A DNA stretch of 64,000 nucleotides, taken from assembly GCA_022827055.1 (NCBI GenBank), contig JAJDTR010000088.1, forward strand, positions 9,043 to 73,042. The letters run 5' to 3'. Shown in pieces: positions 25,878-42,691 of the stretch. A program made the position numbers and the translations under genes. The stretch comes from Candidatus Poribacteria bacterium (GTDB lineage: Bacteria > Poribacteria > WGA-4E > JAJDTR01). Within the stretch, counting starts at the first letter, position 1. Each line of letters starts with the position of its first letter. The notes under the pieces were generated by a model that saw only the letters and a program-made list of their open reading frames with translations, had not been told where the DNA came from and made no database searches.

Positions 25878-26005
25878 GATCTCTATCGCGTTAAGATCTC
25901 TATCGCGCTCGCTATCCACTCGCTTGATCCTATCCGGTCACTTGATCACTCGCTATTCGCTCGCTTGATCTATTCGCTCGTTCGATCCTTATTCAGTCGC
26001 TTGAT
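25878..26005. repeat. Dispersed repeat family A, copy 2 (internally reiterated TCGCTTGATC x4)
   Basis: ctctatcgcg x2 then cactcgcttgatcc / tcgctcgcttgatc / gtcgcttgat sub-repeats. Confidence 0.6.
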
Positions 26006-33117: not shown

Positions 33118-34479
33118 ATGAGTGCCAAATTCAAACCCAACATTTTAATCATTGACGACGAAATCAGCATTTGCGAGTCCCTGCAAGGCGTCTTGGAGGA
33201 CGAGGGTTACACCGTCCAAACCGCTCTCAGTGGCGAGGAGGGGATTCGTATCCTTGCGGGTGAGCACATCGACCTCGTTTTCTTGGACATCCTCATGCCC
33301 GGCGGAATGGATGGGATTGAAACGCTCAAGCGGATAAAGCAGATGTCATCCGACACGGAGGTGCTCATGATTTCCGGGCACGGAACGTTTGATCTCGCCC
33401 TGGAAGCCGGACAGTTGGGCGCTTCCGACTTCTTGGGGAAACCGCTTTCGCTCGACAGCATCCTGAGAAAGGTTGAGGCAATCAGCGCGAAGATTGCCAT
33501 CAGGCATTCCGACCGCGATGGGGACACGGATTCGCACGCACACGGCATTGTTGGAGATAGCTCGCAGATTCAGGAGATTCTACTGACAATTCGGCAGGTG
33601 GCGCCGACAAACGGACGGGTGCTCATCACCGGCGAGAGTGGCACAGGCAAGGAGCTCATCGCCCACGCCATTCACGCCTTCAGCGAGCGGACCGAGGCGC
33701 CGCTCGTCAAAGTCAATTGTGCGGCAATCCCCCAAGAGTTGATTGAATCGGAGCTATTTGGACATGAAGCAGGCTCGTTTACGGGAGCGTCTAAGAAGCG
33801 AGTCGGGAAGTTTGAGCAAGCGAATGGCGGGACGATATTCCTGGATGAAATTGGAGATATGAGCTTGTCAACGCAAGCCAAGGTGCTGCGGGTGTTGGAG
33901 GAACGGGAGTATGAGCGAGTCGGCGGGAATCAGACGCTGAGAACGGATGTCCGCGTCATCTCGGCGACGAACAAGCATCTTCCCGACGAAATTGAATCGG
34001 GCAATTTCCGCGAGGATCTTTACTACCGATTGAACGTCGTCCCGGTTCATGTCGCGCCGCTGCGAGAGCGGGTTGAGGATTTGCCGCTGCTTGTGGATTA
34101 TTTCCTGTCGCGATTCTGCCGCGAAAACGGGAAACAGACGATGTCCCTAAGCGATGCCGCCATGAACAATCTTCGGAGACGCGAGTGGCTGGGAAATGTG
34201 CGCGAGTTGCGCAACCTGATGGAAAGAGCCGTTATCCTGTGTCCGAATCAGACGATTGACGAAAGCGATTTATCGAAGGAAATACGACGAGATAGCACTG
34301 ACGGGGACAGTTCGGAGGCATCGCTCAAGGATGCGCGGCAGGAGTTTGAGAGCCGTTTTATTCTTAACTGCCTCAAGGGAAACAGTTGGAACATCACCGA
34401 AACGGCAAAACAACTCGGCATTGAGCGAACGCATCTGCATCGCAAAATGCGCCAGTATGAGATTGAGCGTGAACCGTAG
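33118..34479 (+). CDS. Sigma-54-dependent response regulator (NtrC/AtoC family: receiver + AAA+ sigma54 activator + Fis-type HTH)
   Basis: Receiver motifs DLVFLD and the phospho-acceptor Asp context. GESGTGKE Walker A. GAFTGA loop. C-terminal HTH (TAKQLGIERTHLHRKMRQ). Confidence 0.9.
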   Translation: MSAKFKPNILIIDDEISICESLQGVLEDEGYTVQTALSGEEGIRILAGEHIDLVFLDILMPGGMDGIETLKRIKQMSSDTEVLMISGHGTFDLALEAGQLGASDFLGKPLSLDSILRKVEAISAKIAIRHSDRDGDTDSHAHGIVGDSSQIQEILLTIRQVAPTNGRVLITGESGTGKELIAHAIHAFSERTEAPLVKVNCAAIPQELIESELFGHEAGSFTGASKKRVGKFEQANGGTIFLDEIGDMSLSTQAKVLRVLEEREYERVGGNQTLRTDVRVISATNKHLPDEIESGNFREDLYYRLNVVPVHVAPLRERVEDLPLLVDYFLSRFCRENGKQTMSLSDAAMNNLRRREWLGNVRELRNLMERAVILCPNQTIDESDLSKEIRRDSTDGDSSEASLKDARQEFESRFILNCLKGNSWNITETAKQLGIERTHLHRKMRQYEIEREP

Positions 34480-34486
34480 CCAGCCT

Positions 34487-34957
34487 CTAATTTTCTGAAT
34501 CAGTGCGGCGGCGTTGGATGGATTTGGGAGGTCCAAGAATTTCGCGCAGTATGATACCTTGACGGAACGTCTGAGATGTTAGAGAGATGCCCGCAATTGT
34601 CTTAGGCGCCGCTTGGGAGGGCGTGGCTTCTTTTCGTTCCACTGCCCGATTTAAGGCCGTGCGCTCAATTGGTTTCTCCGCTGTGGTACTAGGCTGAGGT
34701 TCAGTCTCATCCGCTACTCTTAATGGTGGAGCGGGTTTGGGCGGCGGCGGTTCCTCCAGTTGCAGAAAGTCCGGTAACGATTCAGTGACATCCTCATCCG
34801 TCGTTTTGATATTGCCCCAGGGGGGCAGTTTGACTTCCTGTTCGTCCTCTAACACCACCTCAGGTTCCGATTCGCGCGGCTTCTTGCGGCGAAAAGCGCG
34901 ACCCAGCAACGTAAGCGCTATGATGATGAATGGAATTAGTTGAATTAGCTCGTCCAC
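34487..34957 (-). CDS. Small membrane-anchored Pro/Glu-rich protein (hypothetical; YqfB-position gene downstream of floA)
   Basis: N-terminal TM helix (LIPFIIIALTLLG), then an acidic proline-rich linker. Same strand as, and immediately downstream of, the FloA paralogs. Confidence 0.35.
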   Translation of the reverse strand: MDELIQLIPFIIIALTLLGRAFRRKKPRESEPEVVLEDEQEVKLPPWGNIKTTDEDVTESLPDFLQLEEPPPPKPAPPLRVADETEPQPSTTAEKPIERTALNRAVERKEATPSQAAPKTIAGISLTSQTFRQGIILREILGPPKSIQRRRTDSEN

Positions 34958-35044: not shown

Positions 35045-36076
35045 CTACGTAAGCCCGATCGAATGTGCTGATCTAGTCGTATCGGTTTCACGCTCGCCGC
35101 CAGGAGAGGCAATGGCTTGGCGCATCTCCGTATCGGCGAGGATATTCCTGAGGTTGTAGTAATCCATAACGCTCATTCGACTGGAATCAAATGAATCGGC
35201 GATTGCGCGAGGAACTTCGGCTTCCGCTTCAACAAGGGTAACGGTCATCTCTTCAACAAGCGCTTTGTTTTCCTCTTCCTCCGCTTGCGCTCGGGCTCGC
35301 CTCTCCTCCGCTTTTGCCTGCGCGATCTTCAATTCTGCTTGCGCCTGATCGGTCTGCAGCTTGGCGCCGACGTTCTCGCCTACGTTGATGTCGGCGATAT
35401 CGATTGACAAAATCTCAAAGGCGGTTCCGGCGGATAACCCTTTTTCGAGCACAGTTTCCGAAATGCGTACCGGGCTTTCCAAAACCTCCTTGTGACTCGC
35501 CGCAGAGCCGATTGTCGTGATAATCCCTTCACCTACTCTGGCTCTAATGGTTTCTTCGGTAGCCCCGCCGACGAGACGATCAATGTCCGCCCTCACCGTC
35601 ACACGTGCCTTGACAATAAGCTGAATGCCATCACGCGCAACGGCGGTAATTCCGGATTGGGTGTCTCCCTTGGAGGGAATGTCGATGATTTCCGGCGTGA
35701 CGCTGACCTGTACGGCTTGCAACACATCGCGGCCGGCAAGGTCGATTGCGGCGGCTTGCGCGAAGTCAAGTGAGATGTTCGCTTTATCCGCGGCGATGAG
35801 CGCTGCGACGACACTGGCAACTCTTCCGCCCGCGAGATAGTGCGCCTCTAGTTCATCGAGCGAAAGGTTGAGCCCCGCCTTGGTCGCGTTGATTTGCGGC
35901 TCTATGATGCCTTTGGGAGGCACACGCCGCAAACGCATCGCGACCAGATCGCCAAAGATCCGCACCCGAACATTCGCCGCGATCGCGGTGATCCATAAAC
36001 CGATAGGGACGAACGTGGTGAGGAATATGAGAAATACAATAACAAGAACCGCGAGTATCGCAACAACTGACGGCAT
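35045..36076 (-). CDS. floA: Flotillin-like protein FloA (UPF0365/YqfA family), paralog 1
   Basis: 343 aa. N-terminal TM hairpin. Band-7/SPFH core ([11 protein letters not shown]...[17 protein letters not shown]). C-terminal EA-rich coiled coil ([24 protein letters not shown]). Confidence 0.8.
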
Positions 36077-36090
36077 CTGAAACCCTCCTT

Positions 36091-36996
36091 CTAAGATTGC
36101 GGTGTTAAGGTGCCTTCGCGGAACGCACCCGCGAGCGCGCGGGGAACGGAAGCCTCGGCTTCGACAACCGTAGCTCGCATCTTCTGGACATTGGCTGTCA
36201 TCTCCTGCTTACGCGCGACTGCCATCGCTCGTCTTTCCTCCGCCTTAGCCTGCGCAACGACCAGATCGGCTTCGGCTTGCTCGGCTTGGAGTTCGGCTCC
36301 GATGTTCTTCCCAACGTTGACATCGGCAATATCAATGGAGAGAATCTCATAGGCAGTGCCCGCGTCTAGCCCCCGATCCAACACGGTTTTGGACATAACG
36401 TCGGGATTTTCAAGGACATCTTCGTAAGTCTCCGCGGCGCCAATTGCGCTAATGATTCCCTCTCCGACCCGCGCAATAATTGTCTCTTCGCCCGCGCCAC
36501 CGACGAGTCTGTTGATGTTCGTCCTGACAGTGATTCGCACGACGGCAATCAGCTCAACGCCGTCAAGTGCGACCGTGCTGATACGCGGTGTCGTGATGAC
36601 GCGAGGGTTGACGCTAACCTGTACGGCTTCAAATACATCTCGCCCCGCTAAATCAATTGCAGCGGAACGCTGGAAATTGAGGTCGATTTTCGCTTTGTCC
36701 GCGGCAATCAATGCGTTCACGACTCTCAGCACGTTTCCGCCCGCAAGGTAGTGCGCTTCAAGATCGGTCGTTTTAACTGTCAGACCTGCCTTGGTCGCGC
36801 TAATCTGTGCGTTAACAATTACGTTCGGATTCACCCGCCGTAAACGCATCCCGACCAAATCGCCGATGATGCGGATTCGCACACCTGCCGCTTGAGCGGC
36901 AATCCACAGACCGACAGGCACAAACCAAAAGAATACTAGCAGAAAAATCAGTATCAATACGGCAATAATCGCTGTAAAACCTGTTATATCAGGCAT
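36091..36996 (-). CDS. floA: Flotillin-like protein FloA, paralog 2
   Basis: 301 aa. About 55% identical to paralog 1 along the SPFH core. Has the same EAEAD...[10 protein letters not shown] tail. Confidence 0.8.
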
Positions 36997-37021: not shown

Positions 37022-37672
37022 TTACGATTGAGATGGGGATTCTTGGTTGTCCCTGTTTCCGACTTCAGCCTGGAGCGCGTGAGAGACTATTTCAACCTTG
37101 GCAGTGAGTTTGCTTATGTCGGCGTGGGTTGCCTGAGCGTTAGCATGAATTGCCTCGGTGTTGGCATCAATCTTCTCGCCGAGTCTCACCATCTGAGACT
37201 GCATCAATCTCATATCTTCACGAATTTCATTGGTGATTGCCAGGGAAGTGGTAAATACTTTGTCAATCTGCTGTTGAAGATTAGAGGTTTCATTTTCAAT
37301 CTGCTTTTGAAGATTGGATATTTCGCTTCCAATCTGCTGTTGACGACCGGATGTTTCGTTTTCAATCTGCTTTTGAAGATTGGATGTTTCGTTTTCGATC
37401 TGCTTTTGAAGGATGGACGTTCCGCTTTCAATCTGCTTTTGAAGGATGGACGTTTCGTTTTCGATCTGCTTTTGAAGATTGGTTGTTACGCTTCCAATCT
37501 GCTCTTGACGACTTGATGCTTCTTTATCAATTTGCTTTTGGAGGTTGTCTGCTATCCTATTCATTTCTGCCCTACTGGGAATGCGCCATCCCAATAGAAA
37601 TATTGTGACCCCAAAGCCTAAAATAGTGACGATTGGCAACAGCTCTTTCATTGCACCCATCAATTCTACCAC
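37022..37672 (-). CDS. Membrane-anchored coiled-coil protein built from 11-residue tandem repeats (LQKQIENETSN)
   Basis: N-terminal TM helix. About 8.5 copies of an 11-aa heptad-like repeat. C-terminal apolipoprotein-like helices. Confidence 0.55.
   Translation of the reverse strand: MVELMGAMKELLPIVTILGFGVTIFLLGWRIPSRAEMNRIADNLQKQIDKEASSRQEQIGSVTTNLQKQIENETSILQKQIESGTSILQKQIENETSNLQKQIENETSGRQQQIGSEISNLQKQIENETSNLQQQIDKVFTTSLAITNEIREDMRLMQSQMVRLGEKIDANTEAIHANAQATHADISKLTAKVEIVSHALQAEVGNRDNQESPSQS
37262..37545 (-). repeat. 33-bp tandem repeat array (about 8.5 units) encoding the 11-aa LQKQIENETSx repeats
   Basis: Plus-strand unit TTCAATCTGCTTTTGAAGATTGGATGTTTCGTT, repeated head-to-tail with point variants. 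Confidence 0.8.
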
Positions 37673-37702
37673 GGTTCAATTTCTCCTTACTTTGCAGATT
37701 GT

Positions 37703-38020
37703 TTACAGGCTCCGAACAACAACCCGGCTTCCTTCTACTGCAACCACTTCCACCTCTGTTTCAGGCTCGATAAATTCTCCGTTAGTGATCACATCCACCC
37801 GCTGTCCATCAATCAGGGCGACACCCGCCGGTCGCAGCGGTGACAGGGATTGTCCGGATTGACCGGCTAAAGCCGCTAGTTCTTGAGGCGCAGCCTGAAA
37901 TCCATCGGCGCTATTCTCTGTAGTCTTGAGAATTAGGGTTCGCACCAATTTCACCACAATGGCTATCAGAACCGCGACAATCACCAAAGTTAGAATTGTG
38001 TCCATCCCGAAATTCCCCAT
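37703..38020 (-). CDS. NfeD-like short protein (TM helix + C-terminal OB-fold)
   Basis: 105 aa. C-terminal PAGVALIDGQRVDVITNGEFIEPETEVEVVAVEGSRVVV is the NfeD C-terminal beta-barrel consensus. Confidence 0.6.
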   Translation of the reverse strand: MGNFGMDTILTLVIVAVLIAIVVKLVRTLILKTTENSADGFQAAPQELAALAGQSGQSLSPLRPAGVALIDGQRVDVITNGEFIEPETEVEVVAVEGSRVVVRSL

Positions 38021-38031
38021 TTGACAACTGT

Positions 38032-38514
38032 TTACCGACTCCTCACGACAACTCGACGCCCCTCAACGGCAACTACTTCCACTTCCGTTTCGGGTTGTAT
38101 GAACTCCCCGTTGGTGACTACGTCTATCCGCTTGCCATCAATCAGGGCAACTCCTGCCGGTCTGAGGGGAGACACGGACTGACCGACGCGACCGACTAAA
38201 TCTGCTAACTCCTGCGGCGGGGCTTGAAAACCGTCGTCGCTATTTTGAGCGGTCCGAAGAATGACGGTTCGGCCGAGCCGTGTTCGGGGCGCGAGCCACA
38301 ATCCCAAGATGGCAAGCGGGATAATAATGACAACCGTCCTTCCGGCGTATAGCGAGGCGGTTTCCCATCCGTTTTCGAACCAAACTATCCCAATACCGAC
38401 ACATATGAGAATTATTCCCGGCACACCAGCCGCCCCGAAATCGGGAAGCAGAATAATCTCAATGAATAGCAATAGGACCCCTAAACCGAGGAGAAAGAGG
38501 GGTAGCGGCGGCAT
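38032..38514 (-). CDS. NfeD-like short protein, paralog (3 TM + OB-fold)
   Basis: 160 aa. C-terminal 60 aa is about 80% identical to the 105-aa paralog (PAGVALIDGKRIDVVTNGEFIQPETEVEVVAVEGRRVVV). Confidence 0.65.
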   Translation of the reverse strand: MPPLPLFLLGLGVLLLFIEIILLPDFGAAGVPGIILICVGIGIVWFENGWETASLYAGRTVVIIIPLAILGLWLAPRTRLGRTVILRTAQNSDDGFQAPPQELADLVGRVGQSVSPLRPAGVALIDGKRIDVVTNGEFIQPETEVEVVAVEGRRVVVRSR

Positions 38515-38608: not shown

Positions 38609-40147
38609 TTACGTTGTGTTGGTTTCCTCTTCCAAGGCTTCCACGAAGACCTTCGAGCCTTCTACCTCTATCACTTTCACGGCGGTTTCAGAAGGGATGA
38701 AATCGCCCGCGGTAAGTACATCAACGCGTTTGCCGGCGAGGCGTATTGTACCTGCCGGACGCAGGGGTGTAATCGCCGTCCCGGTCTGCCCGACATAACT
38801 CTGATAATCTTCATCCCCTGCAGAATGAAAGCCAATGTCCGAACTCATCTCGGTTGCTAAAGCGAAATGCTTCCATGCGCGTGTCTTGGGGAAGAAACAA
38901 AACGTGGCAATCACAAAGGCAGCGGTGAGGACGATAACAGATGAGAACGCCAGAATTGCCGTTTCAAACTGATAGGCGCTCTTGAATACATAAAATATAC
39001 CGCCGAACATAAGGATTATGCCCGAGATTCCCGCAACTCCAAATCCCGGCAGAACGAAAACCTCTACCAAAATCAACCCCAATCCCAAAACAAATGCCAA
39101 TGCCGCCCACTGGGCGTCGATTTGGCTCAACATGTGTCCGCCGAAGAAGATTCCGAGACATAGCAAACCAATCATTCCGGGCACGCCAAATCCGGGCGAT
39201 TGTATTTCTATCCACAATCCGAGCATCCCGAAGGAGAGCAGAAGCGAGCTAATGATTGGACTCGTGAGAAAAATGACAATCCGATCCGCCAATGATACGC
39301 GGGCTTCGTCAATTGCTGCGCCTTCAAGCGACTTGACAAACCATACACTTTCGGCGCCAAGTTCTTCCTGTTTCTGCGATGCGGCTTCTGCCGTTAGCAC
39401 TGTCATAACCCCATCAACCTCGACGATTCGATACATTGCCAAAAGCTCTTCAATGGTTTCCGCACGCCCATGCGCGAAACCGTACTCTAAGGCTTCGTCT
39501 GTGGTCAGAGTCAACAACTCGCCCTCGGCGGAGATGACCTCCATCTCCTCTCCTTTTTGCCTCTCATCTTCATAAATGTCAGGTCTGTACGATTCGATTG
39601 TGCCGTCTGCCAGCCTGACAAGCACCCGTTTCTTGTCAACCATTGCGACCGCGATATGAGGGTTGTACCCTTGTCGTTCCGCGGTTGATTTGATTGTCTT
39701 GCGAATATAAGAAACCGCTTTTTCTCCGGCCTCTTCTCCCTGAATCGAGACCGGCGCGGAATCGCCAATGGTTCCACCGGAGGTCATCACAATCTGGTCG
39801 CATGCAATGGAGATCATTGCGCCTGCGGAAATCGCCTGTCTATTCACATAGGCAATGGTCGGCACGTGCGTGTCTTGAATTGCTCGAATTATCTCGACTG
39901 CGGAATCGACTCGACCGCCGGGAGTGTCAACGTCAAATATAATCGCATCCGCATTAGCGTTTTCAGCACGCGCAATTCCGCTCTGGATGTAAGTGCGTAT
40001 CCCGCTGCCAATCTGATCGCGTATGTTGACAATATGCACCAAGGCTTCATCTTGAGCCGATGAGACCAGTGACATGGCTAGGAGGCTAACGCCGAGTATT
40101 ATGAATATGCAACTTGTCAAACGTGTTCTGCTAAACATGGCAATCAC
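38609..40147 (-). CDS. NfeD long form: ClpP-class membrane serine protease + TM region + OB-fold
   Basis: 512 aa. N-terminal ClpP/SppA-like fold (TPGGRVDSAVEI...GAMISIACDQIVM). Central 5-TM block. C-terminal TAITPLRPAGTIRLAGKRVDVLTAGDFIPSETAVKVIEVEGSKVFV. Confidence 0.75.
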   Translation of the reverse strand: MIAMFSRTRLTSCIFIILGVSLLAMSLVSSAQDEALVHIVNIRDQIGSGIRTYIQSGIARAENANADAIIFDVDTPGGRVDSAVEIIRAIQDTHVPTIAYVNRQAISAGAMISIACDQIVMTSGGTIGDSAPVSIQGEEAGEKAVSYIRKTIKSTAERQGYNPHIAVAMVDKKRVLVRLADGTIESYRPDIYEDERQKGEEMEVISAEGELLTLTTDEALEYGFAHGRAETIEELLAMYRIVEVDGVMTVLTAEAASQKQEELGAESVWFVKSLEGAAIDEARVSLADRIVIFLTSPIISSLLLSFGMLGLWIEIQSPGFGVPGMIGLLCLGIFFGGHMLSQIDAQWAALAFVLGLGLILVEVFVLPGFGVAGISGIILMFGGIFYVFKSAYQFETAILAFSSVIVLTAAFVIATFCFFPKTRAWKHFALATEMSSDIGFHSAGDEDYQSYVGQTGTAITPLRPAGTIRLAGKRVDVLTAGDFIPSETAVKVIEVEGSKVFVEALEEETNTT

Positions 40148-41050
40148 CTCTTCTTAAGTCCGGATGGCGAATGAGGTGGAAAAGTTTATGGATTTCTCGA
40201 GTTCGGTCTGGTCCAATCTGCAATCAAAGCGTACAGAATACACATCACTATTATATCCATCATGCCGTGACCTGTCAAGCCTTTTGAAACTCAGCATCTA
40301 CGGTGTTGACGCTTGTGATCGATTGACATTCTCGCTTACCAAATGGTGCTGCGATGGAGGGAAAACCGCTAATATTTTCCCGAAGTCTTACGCCACCGCA
40401 TTCGTGCTAACAACCCCTGATCTCTGCACGGTATTTGCCGTTTCTTTTCGATGTCGTCAACGCTGATTTGAAACGCGACGGTCCGGTAGGTGCGATTTCC
40501 GGATCGCGAGCACATTCTCCGGCTCAATCAAGATTCCGTGGAAAGGCATCTGAATGCAGGGCTTGATATGCGGGGCACCTGGAATCTGCTTGTATAGGCT
40601 CTTGCATAGGGTAAAACACATGTCTAATCCCCTGATTTCCTTGATATTGGACAGAGTTAATCGTTGATTAGAGATTAACAATTCAAATTTGAGTCATTGG
40701 CAGACCGCAGACGCAGACGAGTTGATTGTCGCACGCCCCATAAGCTTTTGATGATATTGTCATTGCTTTCTGCTGTAACCTGGGAAAGTGTTATCGCCTA
40801 GGGGACACCCGACCTGCGAGGTAACACCACGCCCGATTTTTCTCGACACAATTTATACAACGTGCTAAAATGATATCTACTTGGCGGAGGCAATTTTAAA
40901 CGTTATAAACCGAGTTTATGCTGGAATCCTCGGTTTCTGCCGCTTTATGAGAGACGAAGAAGTTCTGCCCACTGCAGTACCTAAGCAGAATCGGATGTTC
41001 TGCAAACAGTATCCCCACCCAAAAATCTCTATCACGGAGGAGCGTTGATA

Positions 41051-42691
41051 ATGAAATTCCTAAGAATACTTGCGGCTTGCTCGCTGCTCGGATTTGGGTT
41101 GTTAACCGCGGCTTTTGCGGAATCCAAGCTAATATCAAGCGATCCGAACAGGGGAGACCAGTTCGGTTGGTCGGTAGACATCAGCGGGCATACGATAATT
41201 GTTGGCGCCCCAATCAACAGCGAAAACAACCTTATCGAGCACGGATCAGCGTATATCTTTACGCTCAAGAGAGAAGGCAACAAGGACAACTGGGAAGAGA
41301 AGGCGGTGCTCGATCCGAAGGAAGACGGACGCCGAAACGACAACTTCGGTTACGCTGTGGCAATTGATGGCGACTATGCGGCAATCGGATCCCCCGGAAT
41401 TAATAGTTCCACCGGTGCCGTGTATGTCTACAAGCGCAGCGGGGGCGCTTGGAAGCAACAGCAGAAAATCGAAGCCGCCGACGGCAAAAAGAGGGACAAT
41501 TTCGGGCATTCCGTCGACATATTCGGAGAACATCTCATCGTGAGCGCTTATCTCGACGATAGCAAAGCCGGATCCGCCTATATTTTCATCCGCAACGGAG
41601 ACAGATGGCGACAGCAGGCGAAACTCACCGGTAACGACACCGCGAAAGGCGACAATTTCGGCGAGGCGGTTGCCTTCGCCGGTAACGAGAACGGCGTCGA
41701 CTTTGCCATTGTTGGAGCGCCTAACAACACACACAACGGAAAGAAGTCGGGCGCCGCATATATCTTTGTTCATGATGGAGGAAATTGGACGGAAGAAACC
41801 AAGTTGGTATCCGCTGACGCTCAAACCTCCGACTTTATTGGAGATGCCGTATCCATTAGTGGACACCGCGGCATTAAGCGTTATGCCCTCGTCGGAGCGC
41901 CGCATTTGGACTTGGCGCAGGACGTAGAGGGTAGGAGCAGCGCCGCATATATCTTCTCGAGCGATGGAGGCGCTTGGAGGGAGGAAGCCAAGCTTACGGC
42001 AAAGGATAAGGAGAAGGCAGACGGCTTCGGATCGGGGGTTTCAATCAATCGTAATATCGCGTTAGTCGGCGTCCCTCGACACGGCGAAGGCGCCATTCTG
42101 GACGGTGAACTTAATGCGGGAATCGTGTACCCATATCTGCGTGACGGCGACCAATGGATTAGGCAAGGGTCTCGGGCAACCACCGTACCCCCGGAATTTC
42201 CGGAACAGAGTTTCGGAAATGTGGTAATAGCCACGCAGGAGTTTATTGTCATCGCCGCGTACGGCTTGCAAAAGGGCAATCCTGATCGCGGTGATCCGAA
42301 CGGTGGGGCGGTTTATATCTATTACACACAAAGGGACTGGAAACTTCCCTACTCGGTCGAACCGTCATTGCTAAGAGCGGCAACGCTGGGGGGAATTAAG
42401 AGGACTGCGCTATTCCAAAACTTCCCGAACCCGTTTAATCCGGAGACCTGGCTGCCCTATCAATTGGGGAGCAAGTCAGATGTGGCATTCCATATCTTCA
42501 ACACGCGAGGACAACTGGTGCGCCGATTAGATGTTGGGACTCAGTCAGCGGGCAGTTATCAGAACAAAGAAACCGCCGCCTATTGGGATGGGCAGGATCA
42601 GCTGGGCCAGGCGGTATCCAGCGGTCTTTACTTCTACACACTGACCGCAGGCACGTCTCAAATCACGCGCCGGATGTTGATTTTGAAATAG
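41051..42691 (+). CDS. Secreted FG-GAP/integrin-alpha-like beta-propeller repeat protein with C-terminal T9SS (Por) sorting domain
   Basis: Signal peptide. Repeated DNFG..VAI.GD.A.IG.P...GA.Y.F motifs (FG-GAP). C-terminal ~80 aa NFPNPFNPETW...YFYTL....R.MLILK, typical of T9SS type-A C-terminal domains. Confidence 0.65.
   Translation: MKFLRILAACSLLGFGLLTAAFAESKLISSDPNRGDQFGWSVDISGHTIIVGAPINSENNLIEHGSAYIFTLKREGNKDNWEEKAVLDPKEDGRRNDNFGYAVAIDGDYAAIGSPGINSSTGAVYVYKRSGGAWKQQQKIEAADGKKRDNFGHSVDIFGEHLIVSAYLDDSKAGSAYIFIRNGDRWRQQAKLTGNDTAKGDNFGEAVAFAGNENGVDFAIVGAPNNTHNGKKSGAAYIFVHDGGNWTEETKLVSADAQTSDFIGDAVSISGHRGIKRYALVGAPHLDLAQDVEGRSSAAYIFSSDGGAWREEAKLTAKDKEKADGFGSGVSINRNIALVGVPRHGEGAILDGELNAGIVYPYLRDGDQWIRQGSRATTVPPEFPEQSFGNVVIATQEFIVIAAYGLQKGNPDRGDPNGGAVYIYYTQRDWKLPYSVEPSLLRAATLGGIKRTALFQNFPNPFNPETWLPYQLGSKSDVAFHIFNTRGQLVRRLDVGTQSAGSYQNKETAAYWDGQDQLGQAVSSGLYFYTLTAGTSQITRRMLILK

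What the first reader, a model, noticed from the sequence alone, without database searches (positions are those of the whole stretch)
37022..37672. Gene built from about 8.5 perfect-to-near-perfect 33-bp tandem repeats (11-aa LQKQIENETSx units)
- The nucleotide array TTCAATCTGCTTTTGAAGATTGGATGTTTCGTT xN (37262-37545) encodes a membrane-anchored coiled-coil protein.
- Its near-identical DNA repeats look recent and are prone to slipped-strand or recombinational copy-number change.
- That could act as a phase- or length-variable spacer protein inside the flotillin operon.
- Candidate functions are a molecular ruler or an anchor for the FloA cage.
- The repeats are coding, not CRISPR. There are no spacers, and the units are contiguous and in frame.
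Basis: seen in the sequence. Interest (0 to 1): 0.5.

Follow-up and report, generated by a model that had tools for sequence, protein, structure and literature searches.

The report
Length-variable membrane-anchored coiled-coil gene
A small Poribacteria gene inserted into a flotillin (NfeD/FloA) operon encodes a membrane-anchored helical rod built from 11-amino-acid units whose number changes between closely related strains (2 to 15 units); its function and any link to flotillin are untested.

Summary
The array is real: period 33 bp, 8.6 copies by TRF, nine in-frame 11-aa units inside a 216-aa minus-strand ORF (37022-37672). It is not "perfect-to-near-perfect": TRF gives 78% matches and no two units are identical.

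The protein has one N-terminal TM helix, then a single 175-residue helix in the AF2 model. Hydrophobic periodicity is 3.67 (hendecad) in the array and about 3.56 (heptad-like) in the conserved tail.

Orthologues in Candidatus Poribacteria carry 2-15 units, nearly always 11n+8 residues; tail indels are 7 or 14 aa, so coiled-coil register is kept. One contig matches the window at every base except a clean 99-bp (3-unit) deletion. Another genome has five identical units. Alleles are recombination mosaics.

Length variation is therefore supported. ON/OFF phase variation is not, because 33 bp is always in frame.

The gene is a clade-specific insertion into an ancestral NfeD1b-NfeD-FloA-FloA operon. 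Its paralogues elsewhere in the same genomes are not flotillin-linked. FloA is 95-99.7% identical while rod length varies about 3-fold, which argues against a precise "FloA-cage ruler". A tether or spacer role is an inference.

No curated family matches. Moderately interesting.

The parts
37022..37672 (-). Gene X: 216-aa protein (GTG start, TAA stop at 37022-37024). N-terminal TM anchor, then nine hendecad units, then a conserved heptad tail.
   Evidence: ORF list; sequence; 36 close orthologues found by the protein search, with the same start position, plus further orthologues in Poribacteria MAG loci; window versus L031 dN/dS 0.29.
37683..37688 (-). Shine-Dalgarno-like AAGGAG, 10 nt upstream of the GTG start.
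   Evidence: Read directly from the sequence.
37586..37642 (-). Single transmembrane helix (aa 11-29, LLPIVTILGFGVTIFLLGW).
   Evidence: Highest Kyte-Doolittle 19-residue window, 2.18. No other window beyond residue 35 exceeds 0.57. AF2 places a helix at residues 2-29.
37547..37588 (-). Conserved post-TM junction W-R-I-P-S-R-A-E-M-N-R-I-A-D (aa 29-42). It is basic, which predicts the C-terminal side is cytoplasmic.
   Evidence: L27, W29, S33 and R39 are invariant across the family; R30, P32 and D42 are at least 90% conserved. K/R count is 3 after the TM versus 1 before it.
37250..37546 (-). Array of nine 33-bp / 11-aa units (aa 43-141), consensus AATCTTCAAAAGCAGATTGAAAACGAAACATCC = NLQKQIENETS.
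   Evidence: TRF; unit table and identity matrix; hydrophobic periodicity 3.67; AF2 pLDDT 91-98 across the array.
37382..37480 (-). Units 3-5: the 99-bp block missing from contig L030. The breakpoint is ambiguous within the 19 nt shared by units 3 and 6.
   Evidence: Global alignment of window and L030: 0 mismatches over 1397 bp and one 99-bp gap.
37025..37249 (-). Conserved C-terminal part (aa 142-216): an 8-aa transition (TSLAITNE), the family-wide IREDMR motif, a heptad-like helix, and a disordered last ~8 residues.
   Evidence: Alignment conservation; periodicity about 3.56; tail indels of 7 or 14 aa among orthologues.
37703..38020 (-). NfeD105: single TM plus an NfeD OB-fold domain. Like X, it is absent from the three more distant FloA operons examined.
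   Evidence: Pfam PF01957, 52 bits; absent from L034-L036.
38032..38514 (-). NfeD160 (NfeD membrane domain plus OB-fold).
   Evidence: Pfam PF01957 and PF24961.
38609..40147 (-). NfeD1b (ClpP-like protease domain, NfeD membrane domain, OB-fold). First gene of the operon.
   Evidence: Pfam PF25145, PF24961 and PF01957.
40250..40278 (-). Perfect sigma-70 consensus promoter (TTGACA-17-TATAAT), about 100 nt upstream of NfeD1b.
   Evidence: Promoter scan, 12 of 12 matches; sequence.
36091..36996 (-). FloA paralogue 1 (301 aa), 25 nt downstream of X.
   Evidence: Pfam PF12127, 459 bits; NCBIfam NF010186 above its cut-off.
35045..36076 (-). FloA paralogue 2 (343 aa).
   Evidence: Pfam PF12127, 471 bits.
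34487..34957 (-). Last operon gene: 156-aa TM plus Pro-rich protein. Its homologue in L001 carries a weak precomputed YqfB (PF27722) hit.
   Evidence: ORF list; L001 gene table. The window copy itself has no Pfam hit.

Best explanation
**What it is.** Gene X encodes a small bitopic membrane protein. It has a short acidic N-tail, one TM helix and a conserved basic junction (WRIPSR). After that comes one long uninterrupted alpha-helix, predicted to face the cytoplasm.

The first ~100 residues of that helix are nine 11-residue (hendecad, 11/3) units. Their hydrophobic stripe is narrow and in phase: I at position a, T at e, L at h. The last ~65 residues are a more hydrophobic heptad-like segment that is conserved across the whole family.

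The most likely state is a parallel homo-oligomeric coiled-coil stalk held in register by the N-terminal anchors. This step is inferred.

**How it varies.** The stalk length changes because the 33-bp units undergo unequal homologous recombination or slippage. This adds or removes whole units, often in blocks of about three units. Each unit adds three helical turns (about 1.65 nm) without changing frame or coiled-coil register. This part is shown by comparison with other genomes.

**Context.** The gene is a clade-specific insertion into an ancestral Poribacteria NfeD1b-NfeD-FloA-FloA operon. It is probably co-transcribed from the sigma-70 promoter upstream of NfeD1b.

**Proposed function (inference, roughly 35-40% likely).** The stalk acts on the cytoplasmic membrane face beside FloA and the NfeD OB-fold domains as a tether or spacer accessory. 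It is not a precise ruler.
For: **Structure**
- One TM only; K/R count 3 after the TM versus 1 before it.
- AF2: helices 2-29 and 34-208, pLDDT 91-98 across the array.
- Periodicity 3.67 in the array and 3.56 in the tail.

**Register conservation**
- 39 of 42 orthologues have an anchor-to-tail segment of exactly 11n+8 residues, n=2-15. The exceptions are P0027 (3-aa deletion) and P0034/P0035 (junction deletion).
- Tail indels are 7 or 14 aa.
- Paralogues expand other 11-, 18- and 22-aa units.

**Copy-number dynamics**
- L030 equals the window with 0 mismatches in 1397 bp, except for a 99-bp deletion whose junction lies in 19 shared nt.
- L011 has five units identical at 33/33 nt. L009 has 14 units arranged in 3-4-unit blocks.
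- L015 has 15 units.

**Recombination**
- X has dS 0.06 against flanking genes at 0.41-0.73, window versus L031.
- A breakpoint lies inside the array in L032.
- Leader, junction, array and tail types occur in all combinations.

**Constraint**
- Core units show pN/pS 0.12.

**Operon**
- Gene order NfeD x3 - X - FloA x2 is conserved in L001-4, L009-14, L031 and L033. L015 has X directly after the NfeD160-like gene, without NfeD105.
- X is 30 nt from the upstream gene and 25 nt from the downstream gene. A perfect promoter lies upstream.
- FloA's PHB and coiled-coil domains and the NfeD OB-fold are cytoplasmic, and the OB-fold binds the FloA coiled coil (PMC11222466).
Against: - Oligomeric state, topology and any contact with FloA or NfeD are untested.
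- Only about 22% of array residues are hydrophobic, which is weak for a classical coiled-coil core.
- The family's most conserved motifs are shared with paralogues in unrelated neighbourhoods. They therefore cannot be FloA-specific.
- Related FloA operons work without X.
- The L030 deletion comes from a 1.4-kb contig and could be an assembly collapse. No reads were available to check.
Confidence: 0.6

Rival explanations
1. Membrane-surface amphipathic 11-mer protein, working like apolipoproteins, alpha-synuclein, perilipins or group-3 LEA proteins. The 11/3 helix would lie flat on the cytoplasmic leaflet and stabilise or sense stressed membrane. This would fit co-expression with a membrane-stress flotillin operon. 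More units would give more surface coverage.
For: - Sub-threshold Apolipoprotein PF01442 matches in 25 of 28 family members, best E 2.5e-10.
- Coherent 11/3 amphipathic moment of 0.34 over 99 residues.
- FloA operons are stress-linked (sigma-W regulon in B. subtilis, PMC3498285; oxidative stress in MRSA, PMC11222466).
- Stand-alone paralogues fit a generic membrane role.
Against: - The PF01442 score is 35 bits against a 90-bit cut-off.
- The hydrophobic face is only about 2 residues per 11.
- There is no Lys-flanked class-A face and no Pro punctuation.
- The heptad tail, with heptad-sized indels, points to coiled-coil packing.
Confidence: 0.2
2. Extracytoplasmic (C-out) stalk. The rod would project into the periplasm as a spacer or exposed antigen-like protein. 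Its length polymorphism and allele shuffling would be driven by diversifying selection, for example from phage or the sponge host.
For: - Mosaic alleles and fast length change resemble surface-protein genes.
- The charge bias in the window allele is modest: C-flank net +1, N-flank net -1.
Against: - The N-tail is acidic and the post-TM junction basic in every subfamily.
- There is no positively charged n-region or signal-peptide-like cleavage site.
- Operon partners act on the cytoplasmic face (PMC11222466).
- The adjacent NfeD105 has the same short-tail / TM / basic-flank layout, and its OB domain is known to be cytoplasmic.
Confidence: 0.1
3. Precise molecular ruler for a FloA/NfeD cage. Rod length would set the size or height of the flotillin assembly.
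For: - Strict 11-residue quantisation preserves the register between the anchor and the conserved tail.
- The operon position is conserved.
Against: - Predicted rod length varies from about 13 to 36 nm. Over the same genomes the two FloA proteins are 95-99.7% identical and under very strong purifying selection, dN/dS 0.007-0.018.
- A 6-unit and a 9-unit allele occur on otherwise identical DNA.
- Sister operons lack X.
Confidence: 0.07
4. Artefact or non-functional filler: an assembly expansion or collapse, or an ORF without function.
For: - L030 is a short contig.
- L015 carries a 1-nt insertion that breaks the frame inside the array.
Against: - The same nine-unit order appears in an independent sample.
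- Intact in-frame arrays occur in several long-read complete chromosomes.
- Unit sequence is under purifying selection, pN/pS 0.12.
- More than 40 intact orthologues exist.
Confidence: 0.03

Closest known systems
In-frame VNTR-encoded helical proteins whose length varies between strains (e.g. streptococcal M and alpha-C-type proteins); comparison from general knowledge
   Same: - Tandem DNA units whose length is a multiple of 3.
- Whole units gained or lost by recombination or slippage.
- Mosaic alleles.
- Repeat sequence maintained at the protein level.
   Different: - X is predicted to face the cytoplasm, not the cell surface.
- It has an N-terminal TM anchor rather than a wall anchor.
- Its unit is a hendecad.
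- It sits in a flotillin operon of an uncultured sponge-associated phylum.
- There is no sequence homology.
Hendecad (11/3) coiled coils such as tetrabrachion RHCC, and 11-residue-periodic length-determining proteins such as phage tape-measure proteins or Braun's lipoprotein as a spacer (general knowledge)
   Same: - 11-residue periodicity with a/e/h core positions.
- Length set by the number of helical residues.
- Indels that keep register.
   Different: - The core is much more polar (22% hydrophobic against about 44-50% in RHCC).
- Oligomeric state is unknown.
- No ruler function has been shown, and length is not conserved.
Apolipoprotein A1/A4/E domain (PF01442) and other 11-mer amphipathic repeat proteins
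   Same: 11-residue helical periodicity. This is the only Pfam family that matches most members, though weakly.
   Different: - The score is far below the gathering threshold (35 versus 90 bits).
- There are no 22-mer Pro-punctuated units.
- The hydrophobic face is narrow.
- X is a bacterial TM-anchored protein.
Canonical nfeD-floA(-yqfB) operon (B. subtilis yqeZ-floA-yqfB; S. aureus nfeD-floA)
   Same: - NfeD1b followed by FloA, and a small TM protein last.
- NfeD OB-fold and FloA coiled coil on the cytoplasmic face (PMC2636767, PMC11222466).
   Different: - The window's operon has three NfeD genes and two FloA genes.
- It also carries X, which has no counterpart in the described operons. X is neither SPFH, NfeD nor YqfB.

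Membership tests
Apolipoprotein A1/A4/E (PF01442) | Pfam score at or above the gathering threshold (90 bits) | tested here: not met
   35.1 bits, E 1.5e-08. 25 of 28 family members match only at sub-threshold level.
Apolipoprotein A1/A4/E (PF01442) | 22-residue (2x11) amphipathic units, commonly punctuated by proline | tested here: not met
   The unit is 11 aa. There is no Pro in aa 43-141.
SPFH / FloA (PF12127, PF01145) | SPFH/PHB domain | tested here: not met
   X has no SPFH hit. BLASTP of X against FloA343 gives E 0.32.
NfeD (PF01957) | C-terminal OB-fold partner-binding domain | tested here: not met
   No hit. AF2 predicts an all-helical protein.
YqfB (PF27722), third gene of the B. subtilis floA operon | Pfam match | tested here: not met
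   No hit for X at E<=1. The weak YqfB hit belongs to the last operon gene's homologue in L001.
YtxH (PF12732) / group-3 LEA (LEA_4) helical stress proteins | Pfam match | tested here: not met
   Not among the hits for X at E<=1.
ZorA (Zorya) coiled-coil tail | NCBIfam NF033914 score at or above 190 bits; MotA/ExbB-like membrane domain | tested here: not met
   16.6 bits; PADLOC ZorA 13.3 bits; X has a single TM only.
Hendecad (11/3) coiled coil (structural class) | Hydrophobic periodicity of 3.67 residues with a/e/h-type spacing | tested here: met
   Dominant spectral peak at 3.67. L2, I6 and T10 lie within 66 degrees of each other on an 11/3 wheel.
Hendecad (11/3) coiled coil (structural class) | Indels that preserve register (multiples of 11, or 7 in heptad segments) | tested here: met
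   Array segment is 11n+8 in 39 of 42 orthologues; tail indels are 7 or 14 aa.
Hendecad (11/3) coiled coil (structural class) | Formation of a helical bundle (oligomer) | not testable with these tools
   Only a monomer AF2 model was possible. It gives a single 175-residue helix with pTM 0.39.
Variable-number tandem-repeat (length-variable) gene | Copy number differs between otherwise near-identical genomes | tested here: met
   L030 versus window: 0 mismatches in 1397 bp and a 99-bp, 3-unit gap. Caveat: L030 is a short contig and no reads were examined.
Phase-variable (ON/OFF) contingency locus | Repeat-number change shifts the reading frame or promoter spacing | tested here: not met
   The unit is 33 bp (3x11). 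All array-length differences among the orthologues are whole 11-aa units and stay in frame.
CRISPR array | Repeats separated by unique spacers; non-coding | tested here: not met
   Units are contiguous, with 0% indels and no spacers. They lie inside a conserved ORF.

The most novel reading that the evidence does not exclude
X is a dedicated, clade-specific third component of the flotillin/NfeD machinery. It would be a cytoplasmic coiled-coil stalk whose conserved tail docks on an NfeD OB-fold (perhaps the co-acquired NfeD105) or on the FloA coiled coil. Its rapidly recombining, length-polymorphic array would tune the reach or spacing of flotillin assemblies, and would be kept polymorphic by diversifying selection in sponge-symbiont populations.
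Probability: 0.12. Interest if true: 0.7.

Novelty: new variant of a known kind. Interest (0 to 1): 0.4.

Why it matters
**What is known and what is new**
- In-frame tandem repeats that change the length of a helical protein are well known in surface proteins.
- Here the same genetic device operates on a protein that is probably cytoplasm-facing and membrane-anchored.
- The gene has been inserted into one of the most conserved bacterial membrane-organisation operons (nfeD-floA), in an uncultured sponge-associated phylum.

**If X does work with FloA/NfeD**
- It would be a natural length series (2-15 units, about 13-36 nm) for asking how distance from the membrane matters for flotillin assemblies.
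- It would also be an unrecognised accessory component of those assemblies.

**Independent of function**
- The family is a clean natural example of coiled-coil register conservation. Indels come only in 11-, 7- and 18-residue quanta.
- It also shows a repeat array acting as a recombination breakpoint.

**If it is only a generic lineage-specific coiled-coil protein**, the finding is of modest interest.

Tried and rejected
- **Exact-sequence look-up of X:** not on record.
- **Curated libraries:** Pfam, NCBIfam, PADLOC and PDB sequence searches gave only sub-threshold, coiled-coil-type matches (Apolipoprotein, Baculo_PEP_C, DUF1664, LeoA, ZorA, a phage tail fibre). I rejected all as membership.
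- **Sigma-54 promoter upstream of the operon:** tested because a sigma-54 activator lies convergent downstream. There is no site near 40148-40600, and window-wide matches are below chance.
- **Similarity of X to the FloA coiled-coil region:** none.
- **JGI metagenome-contig scans:** both the DNA pattern and the protein-profile scan found nothing. No extra strain-level alleles came from that source.
- **Recurrent partner gene next to stand-alone paralogues:** none. The neighbours are a ThDP enzyme plus an SDR, or an ABC transporter plus thiC, and others.
- **Literature search for hendecad VNTR proteins:** nothing relevant.
- **Fold search:** not run, because a single extended helix gives meaningless fold matches.
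- **Multimer modelling:** not available.
- **+ strand ORFs across the array (37028-37516 and 37351-37608):** treated as shadow ORFs of the repeat. Orientation, RBS, homologues and operon strand all support the minus-strand gene.

Full report
**1. Observation**

Tandem Repeats Finder reports one array at 37263-37547: period 33, 8.6 copies, 78% matches, no indels, score 325. No other repeat in the 64-kb window scores above 64.

The array lies inside a minus-strand ORF, 37022-37672, of 216 aa. The start is GTG, with AAGGAG 10 nt upstream.

Parsed in frame, there are nine contiguous 11-aa units (aa 43-141; window 37250-37546) with consensus NLQKQIENETS.

No two units are identical and pairwise identity is 19-31 of 33 nt. 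Units 3, 6 and 8 encode the same peptide but differ by 2-4 synonymous changes. Among the core units pS is 0.45 against pN 0.05. So the units are not very recent here, and their peptide sequence is under purifying selection.

**2. The protein**

- There is a single hydrophobic segment, aa 11-29, with a Kyte-Doolittle mean of 2.18. Nothing else qualifies.
- The N-tail is acidic. The flank after the TM (WRIPSRAEMNR) is basic, with 3 K/R against 1 before it. The same bias holds in every subfamily. This predicts an N-out/C-in topology. That is an inference; I put it at roughly 75-80%.
- AF2 with the family alignment gives helix 2-29, a kink at R-I-P-S, then one helix from 34 to 208. pLDDT is 91-98 through the array. 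pTM is 0.39, as expected for an extended rod.
- Hydrophobic periodicity is 3.67 (11/3) in the array and about 3.56 in the tail.
- On an 11/3 wheel, I, T and L form a narrow stripe, equivalent to a/e/h positions.
- The array is very polar: 22% hydrophobic and mean hydrophobicity -0.25. A coiled-coil core would therefore be narrow and polar. This is why the lipid-binding amphipathic-helix rival cannot be dismissed.

**3. Family and taxonomy**

A 5.8-billion-protein search found 58 relatives (sequences). A scan of GTDB species genomes found 21 loci, all in Candidatus Poribacteria MAGs, with up to five paralogues per genome. One allele comes from a sponge metagenome.

An exhaustive profile search of 1.84 billion representatives found only 51 clusters at E<=1e-3. 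These are all small proteins: those inspected share the N-anchor and W-[RK]-x-P-S-K junction motif and carry varied tandem helical repeats.

No Pfam, NCBIfam, PADLOC or PDB family is reached. The best match is Apolipoprotein PF01442 at 35 bits against a 90-bit threshold. This is an uncharacterised, lineage-restricted family.

**4. Length variation, with register kept**

- Among 42 operon-linked orthologues, the segment between the junction and the IREDMR motif is 11n+8 residues with n=2-15. The only exceptions are one 3-aa deletion and two junction deletions.
- Tail length differs by 7 or 14 aa.
- Paralogues have independently expanded other units of 11, 18 (=11+7) and 22 aa at other positions.
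- Indels restricted to 7/11/18-residue quanta are what a continuous coiled-coil-type helix requires.
- Each hendecad adds three turns, about 1.65 nm. Predicted rod length therefore ranges from about 13 to 36 nm, and is about 26 nm in the window.

**5. How the number changes**

- Contig L030 (1397 bp, from another ENA assembly) has no mismatch to the window. It differs only by a clean 99-bp gap that removes units 3-5. The junction lies in the 19 nt shared by units 3 and 6.
- In the complete chromosome OZ240209 (L011), five adjacent units are 33/33 identical, which marks a very recent expansion.
- L009 has 14 units arranged as repeated 3-4-unit blocks.
- L015 has 15 units plus a 1-nt insertion that breaks the frame. 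This is either a pseudogene or a long-read sequencing error.
- Together these fit unequal homologous recombination or slippage between units.
- Because the unit is 33 bp, copy-number change never causes ON/OFF switching. "Length-variable" is supported and "phase-variable" is not.
- Caveat: no reads were available, so an assembly collapse in L030 cannot be excluded. The variation among long-read chromosomes does not depend on L030.

**6. Recombination mosaic (unexpected)**

- Between the window and L031, synonymous divergence is 0.41-0.73 for the six neighbouring genes but 0.06 for X. The high-identity block coincides with the X gene.
- L032 is about 80% identical to the window over the leader and TM region. 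It is then about 99.5% identical from unit 6 to the end of the gene, so a breakpoint lies inside the array.
- Leader type, junction type, array type and tail type (60 or 67 aa) occur in all combinations.
- X alleles are therefore exchanged and reshuffled between lineages that are otherwise about 85-90% identical at the nucleotide level.

**7. Genomic context**

On the minus strand the order is:
- a perfect sigma-70 consensus promoter (40278-40250)
- NfeD1b (38609-40147)
- NfeD160 (38032-38514)
- NfeD105 (37703-38020)
- X
- FloA301 (36091-36996)
- FloA343 (35045-36076)
- a 156-aa Pro-rich protein (34487-34957)

Gaps between genes are 11-94 nt. The order is conserved in L001-4, L009-14, L031 and L033; L015 lacks NfeD105.

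Three more distant Poribacteria operons (FloA 82-90% identical) read NfeD1b-NfeD160-FloA-FloA-small protein, with neither NfeD105 nor X. X is thus a clade-specific insertion into an older operon. It was presumably recruited from the stand-alone paralogue pool.

Those paralogues have unrelated neighbours and no SPFH or NfeD gene nearby.

Published work places the FloA PHB and coiled-coil regions and the NfeD OB-fold on the cytoplasmic face, with the OB-fold binding the FloA coiled coil (PMC11222466). NfeD-SPFH operons are ancient, and the published operon diagrams omit additional genes "for clarity" (PMC2636767).

**8. Interpretation**

*Shown:*
- a real in-frame 33-bp array
- a TM-anchored all-helical protein with hendecad periodicity
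- unit-number polymorphism and allele recombination
- conserved operon position within one clade
- no membership of any curated family

*Inferred:*
- cytoplasmic orientation
- parallel homo-oligomeric coiled coil
- co-transcription with the operon
- a tether or spacer role beside FloA and NfeD

*On the "ruler for the FloA cage" idea.* It is disfavoured. FloA is 95-99.7% identical, with dN/dS 0.007-0.018, across genomes in which rod length differs about 3-fold. Six- and nine-unit alleles also occur on identical DNA.

*On FloA-specific binding.* The family-wide conserved motifs (the junction and IREDMR) are shared with paralogues that are not linked to flotillin. They more likely encode membrane insertion and oligomerisation than FloA binding.

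**9. Verdict**

Phase variation is rejected. The ruler or anchor role is untested and weakened.
- Novelty: a new variant of a known kind. It is an in-frame VNTR helical protein, but in a new family, probably cytoplasm-facing, hendecad-based, and embedded in a flotillin operon.
- Interest: moderate, 0.4.

Noticed in passing
window 37022-37701, compared with L031: Gene X has synonymous divergence of 0.06. The six flanking operon genes have 0.41-0.73 against the same contig. X therefore looks like a recently exchanged recombination block, and the identity profile of the whole operon is patchy.
   Followed up: yes
window 37703-38020 (NfeD105) and 38032-38514 (NfeD160): NfeD105 looks like a truncated duplicate of NfeD160: one TM plus the OB-fold. 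tblastn shows about 63-80% identity between the two OB regions. Like X, it is missing from the three more distant Poribacteria FloA operons inspected (L034-L036). In L015, X is present without NfeD105.
   Followed up: partly
window 35045-36996: There are two tandem FloA paralogues, about 60% identical to each other. Each is extremely conserved between genomes (95-99.7% aa identity; dN/dS 0.007 and 0.018). The 301-aa copy lacks the C-terminal extension of the 343-aa copy.
   Followed up: partly
window 34487-34957: The last operon gene encodes a 156-aa protein with a TM and a Pro-rich region. It evolves fast (70% aa identity, dN/dS 0.25 against L031). The window copy has no Pfam hit, but its homologue in L001 carries a weak YqfB (PF27722) hit. 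This echoes the B. subtilis yqeZ-floA-yqfB layout.
   Followed up: partly
window 40250-40278 (minus strand): A 12-of-12 match to the sigma-70 consensus (TTGACA-17-TATAAT) lies about 100 nt upstream of NfeD1b. No sigma-54 site was found there, even though a sigma-54-dependent response regulator (33118-34479, + strand) is convergent with the operon in every related locus.
   Followed up: partly
L015 8556-8590 (CAXXCS010000002.1): The longest array (15 units) carries a single-base insertion in unit 14 (AGCACGT where AGTCGT is expected). This truncates the ORF at 191 aa. It is either a genuine pseudogene or a long-read sequencing error.
   Followed up: partly
L017, L018, L023, L024 (paralogues); L025; L016, L019, L020: Stand-alone paralogues have independently expanded other repeat units: GLKGDMAGLES and KIDSGLTRLDD (11 aa), FTGNFHSEIAK (11 aa) and KIDANSQAFHADISKLND (18 aa). 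Repeat expansion is a property of the whole family.
   Followed up: partly
window 37028-37516 and 37351-37608 (+ strand): Long ORFs on the opposite strand run through the array (162 and 85 aa, with LLLKIG-type repeats). They are shadow ORFs produced by a stop-free repeat, not genes.
   Followed up: yes
window 41045-42691 (+ strand): A 548-aa protein lies divergent from the operon. Its counterparts in L001 and L002 carry FG-GAP_2 and FlgD_ig Pfam hits.
   Followed up: no
window 25919-26005: A weak, degenerate tandem repeat (period 17 or 23, score about 64) lies elsewhere in the window.
   Followed up: no
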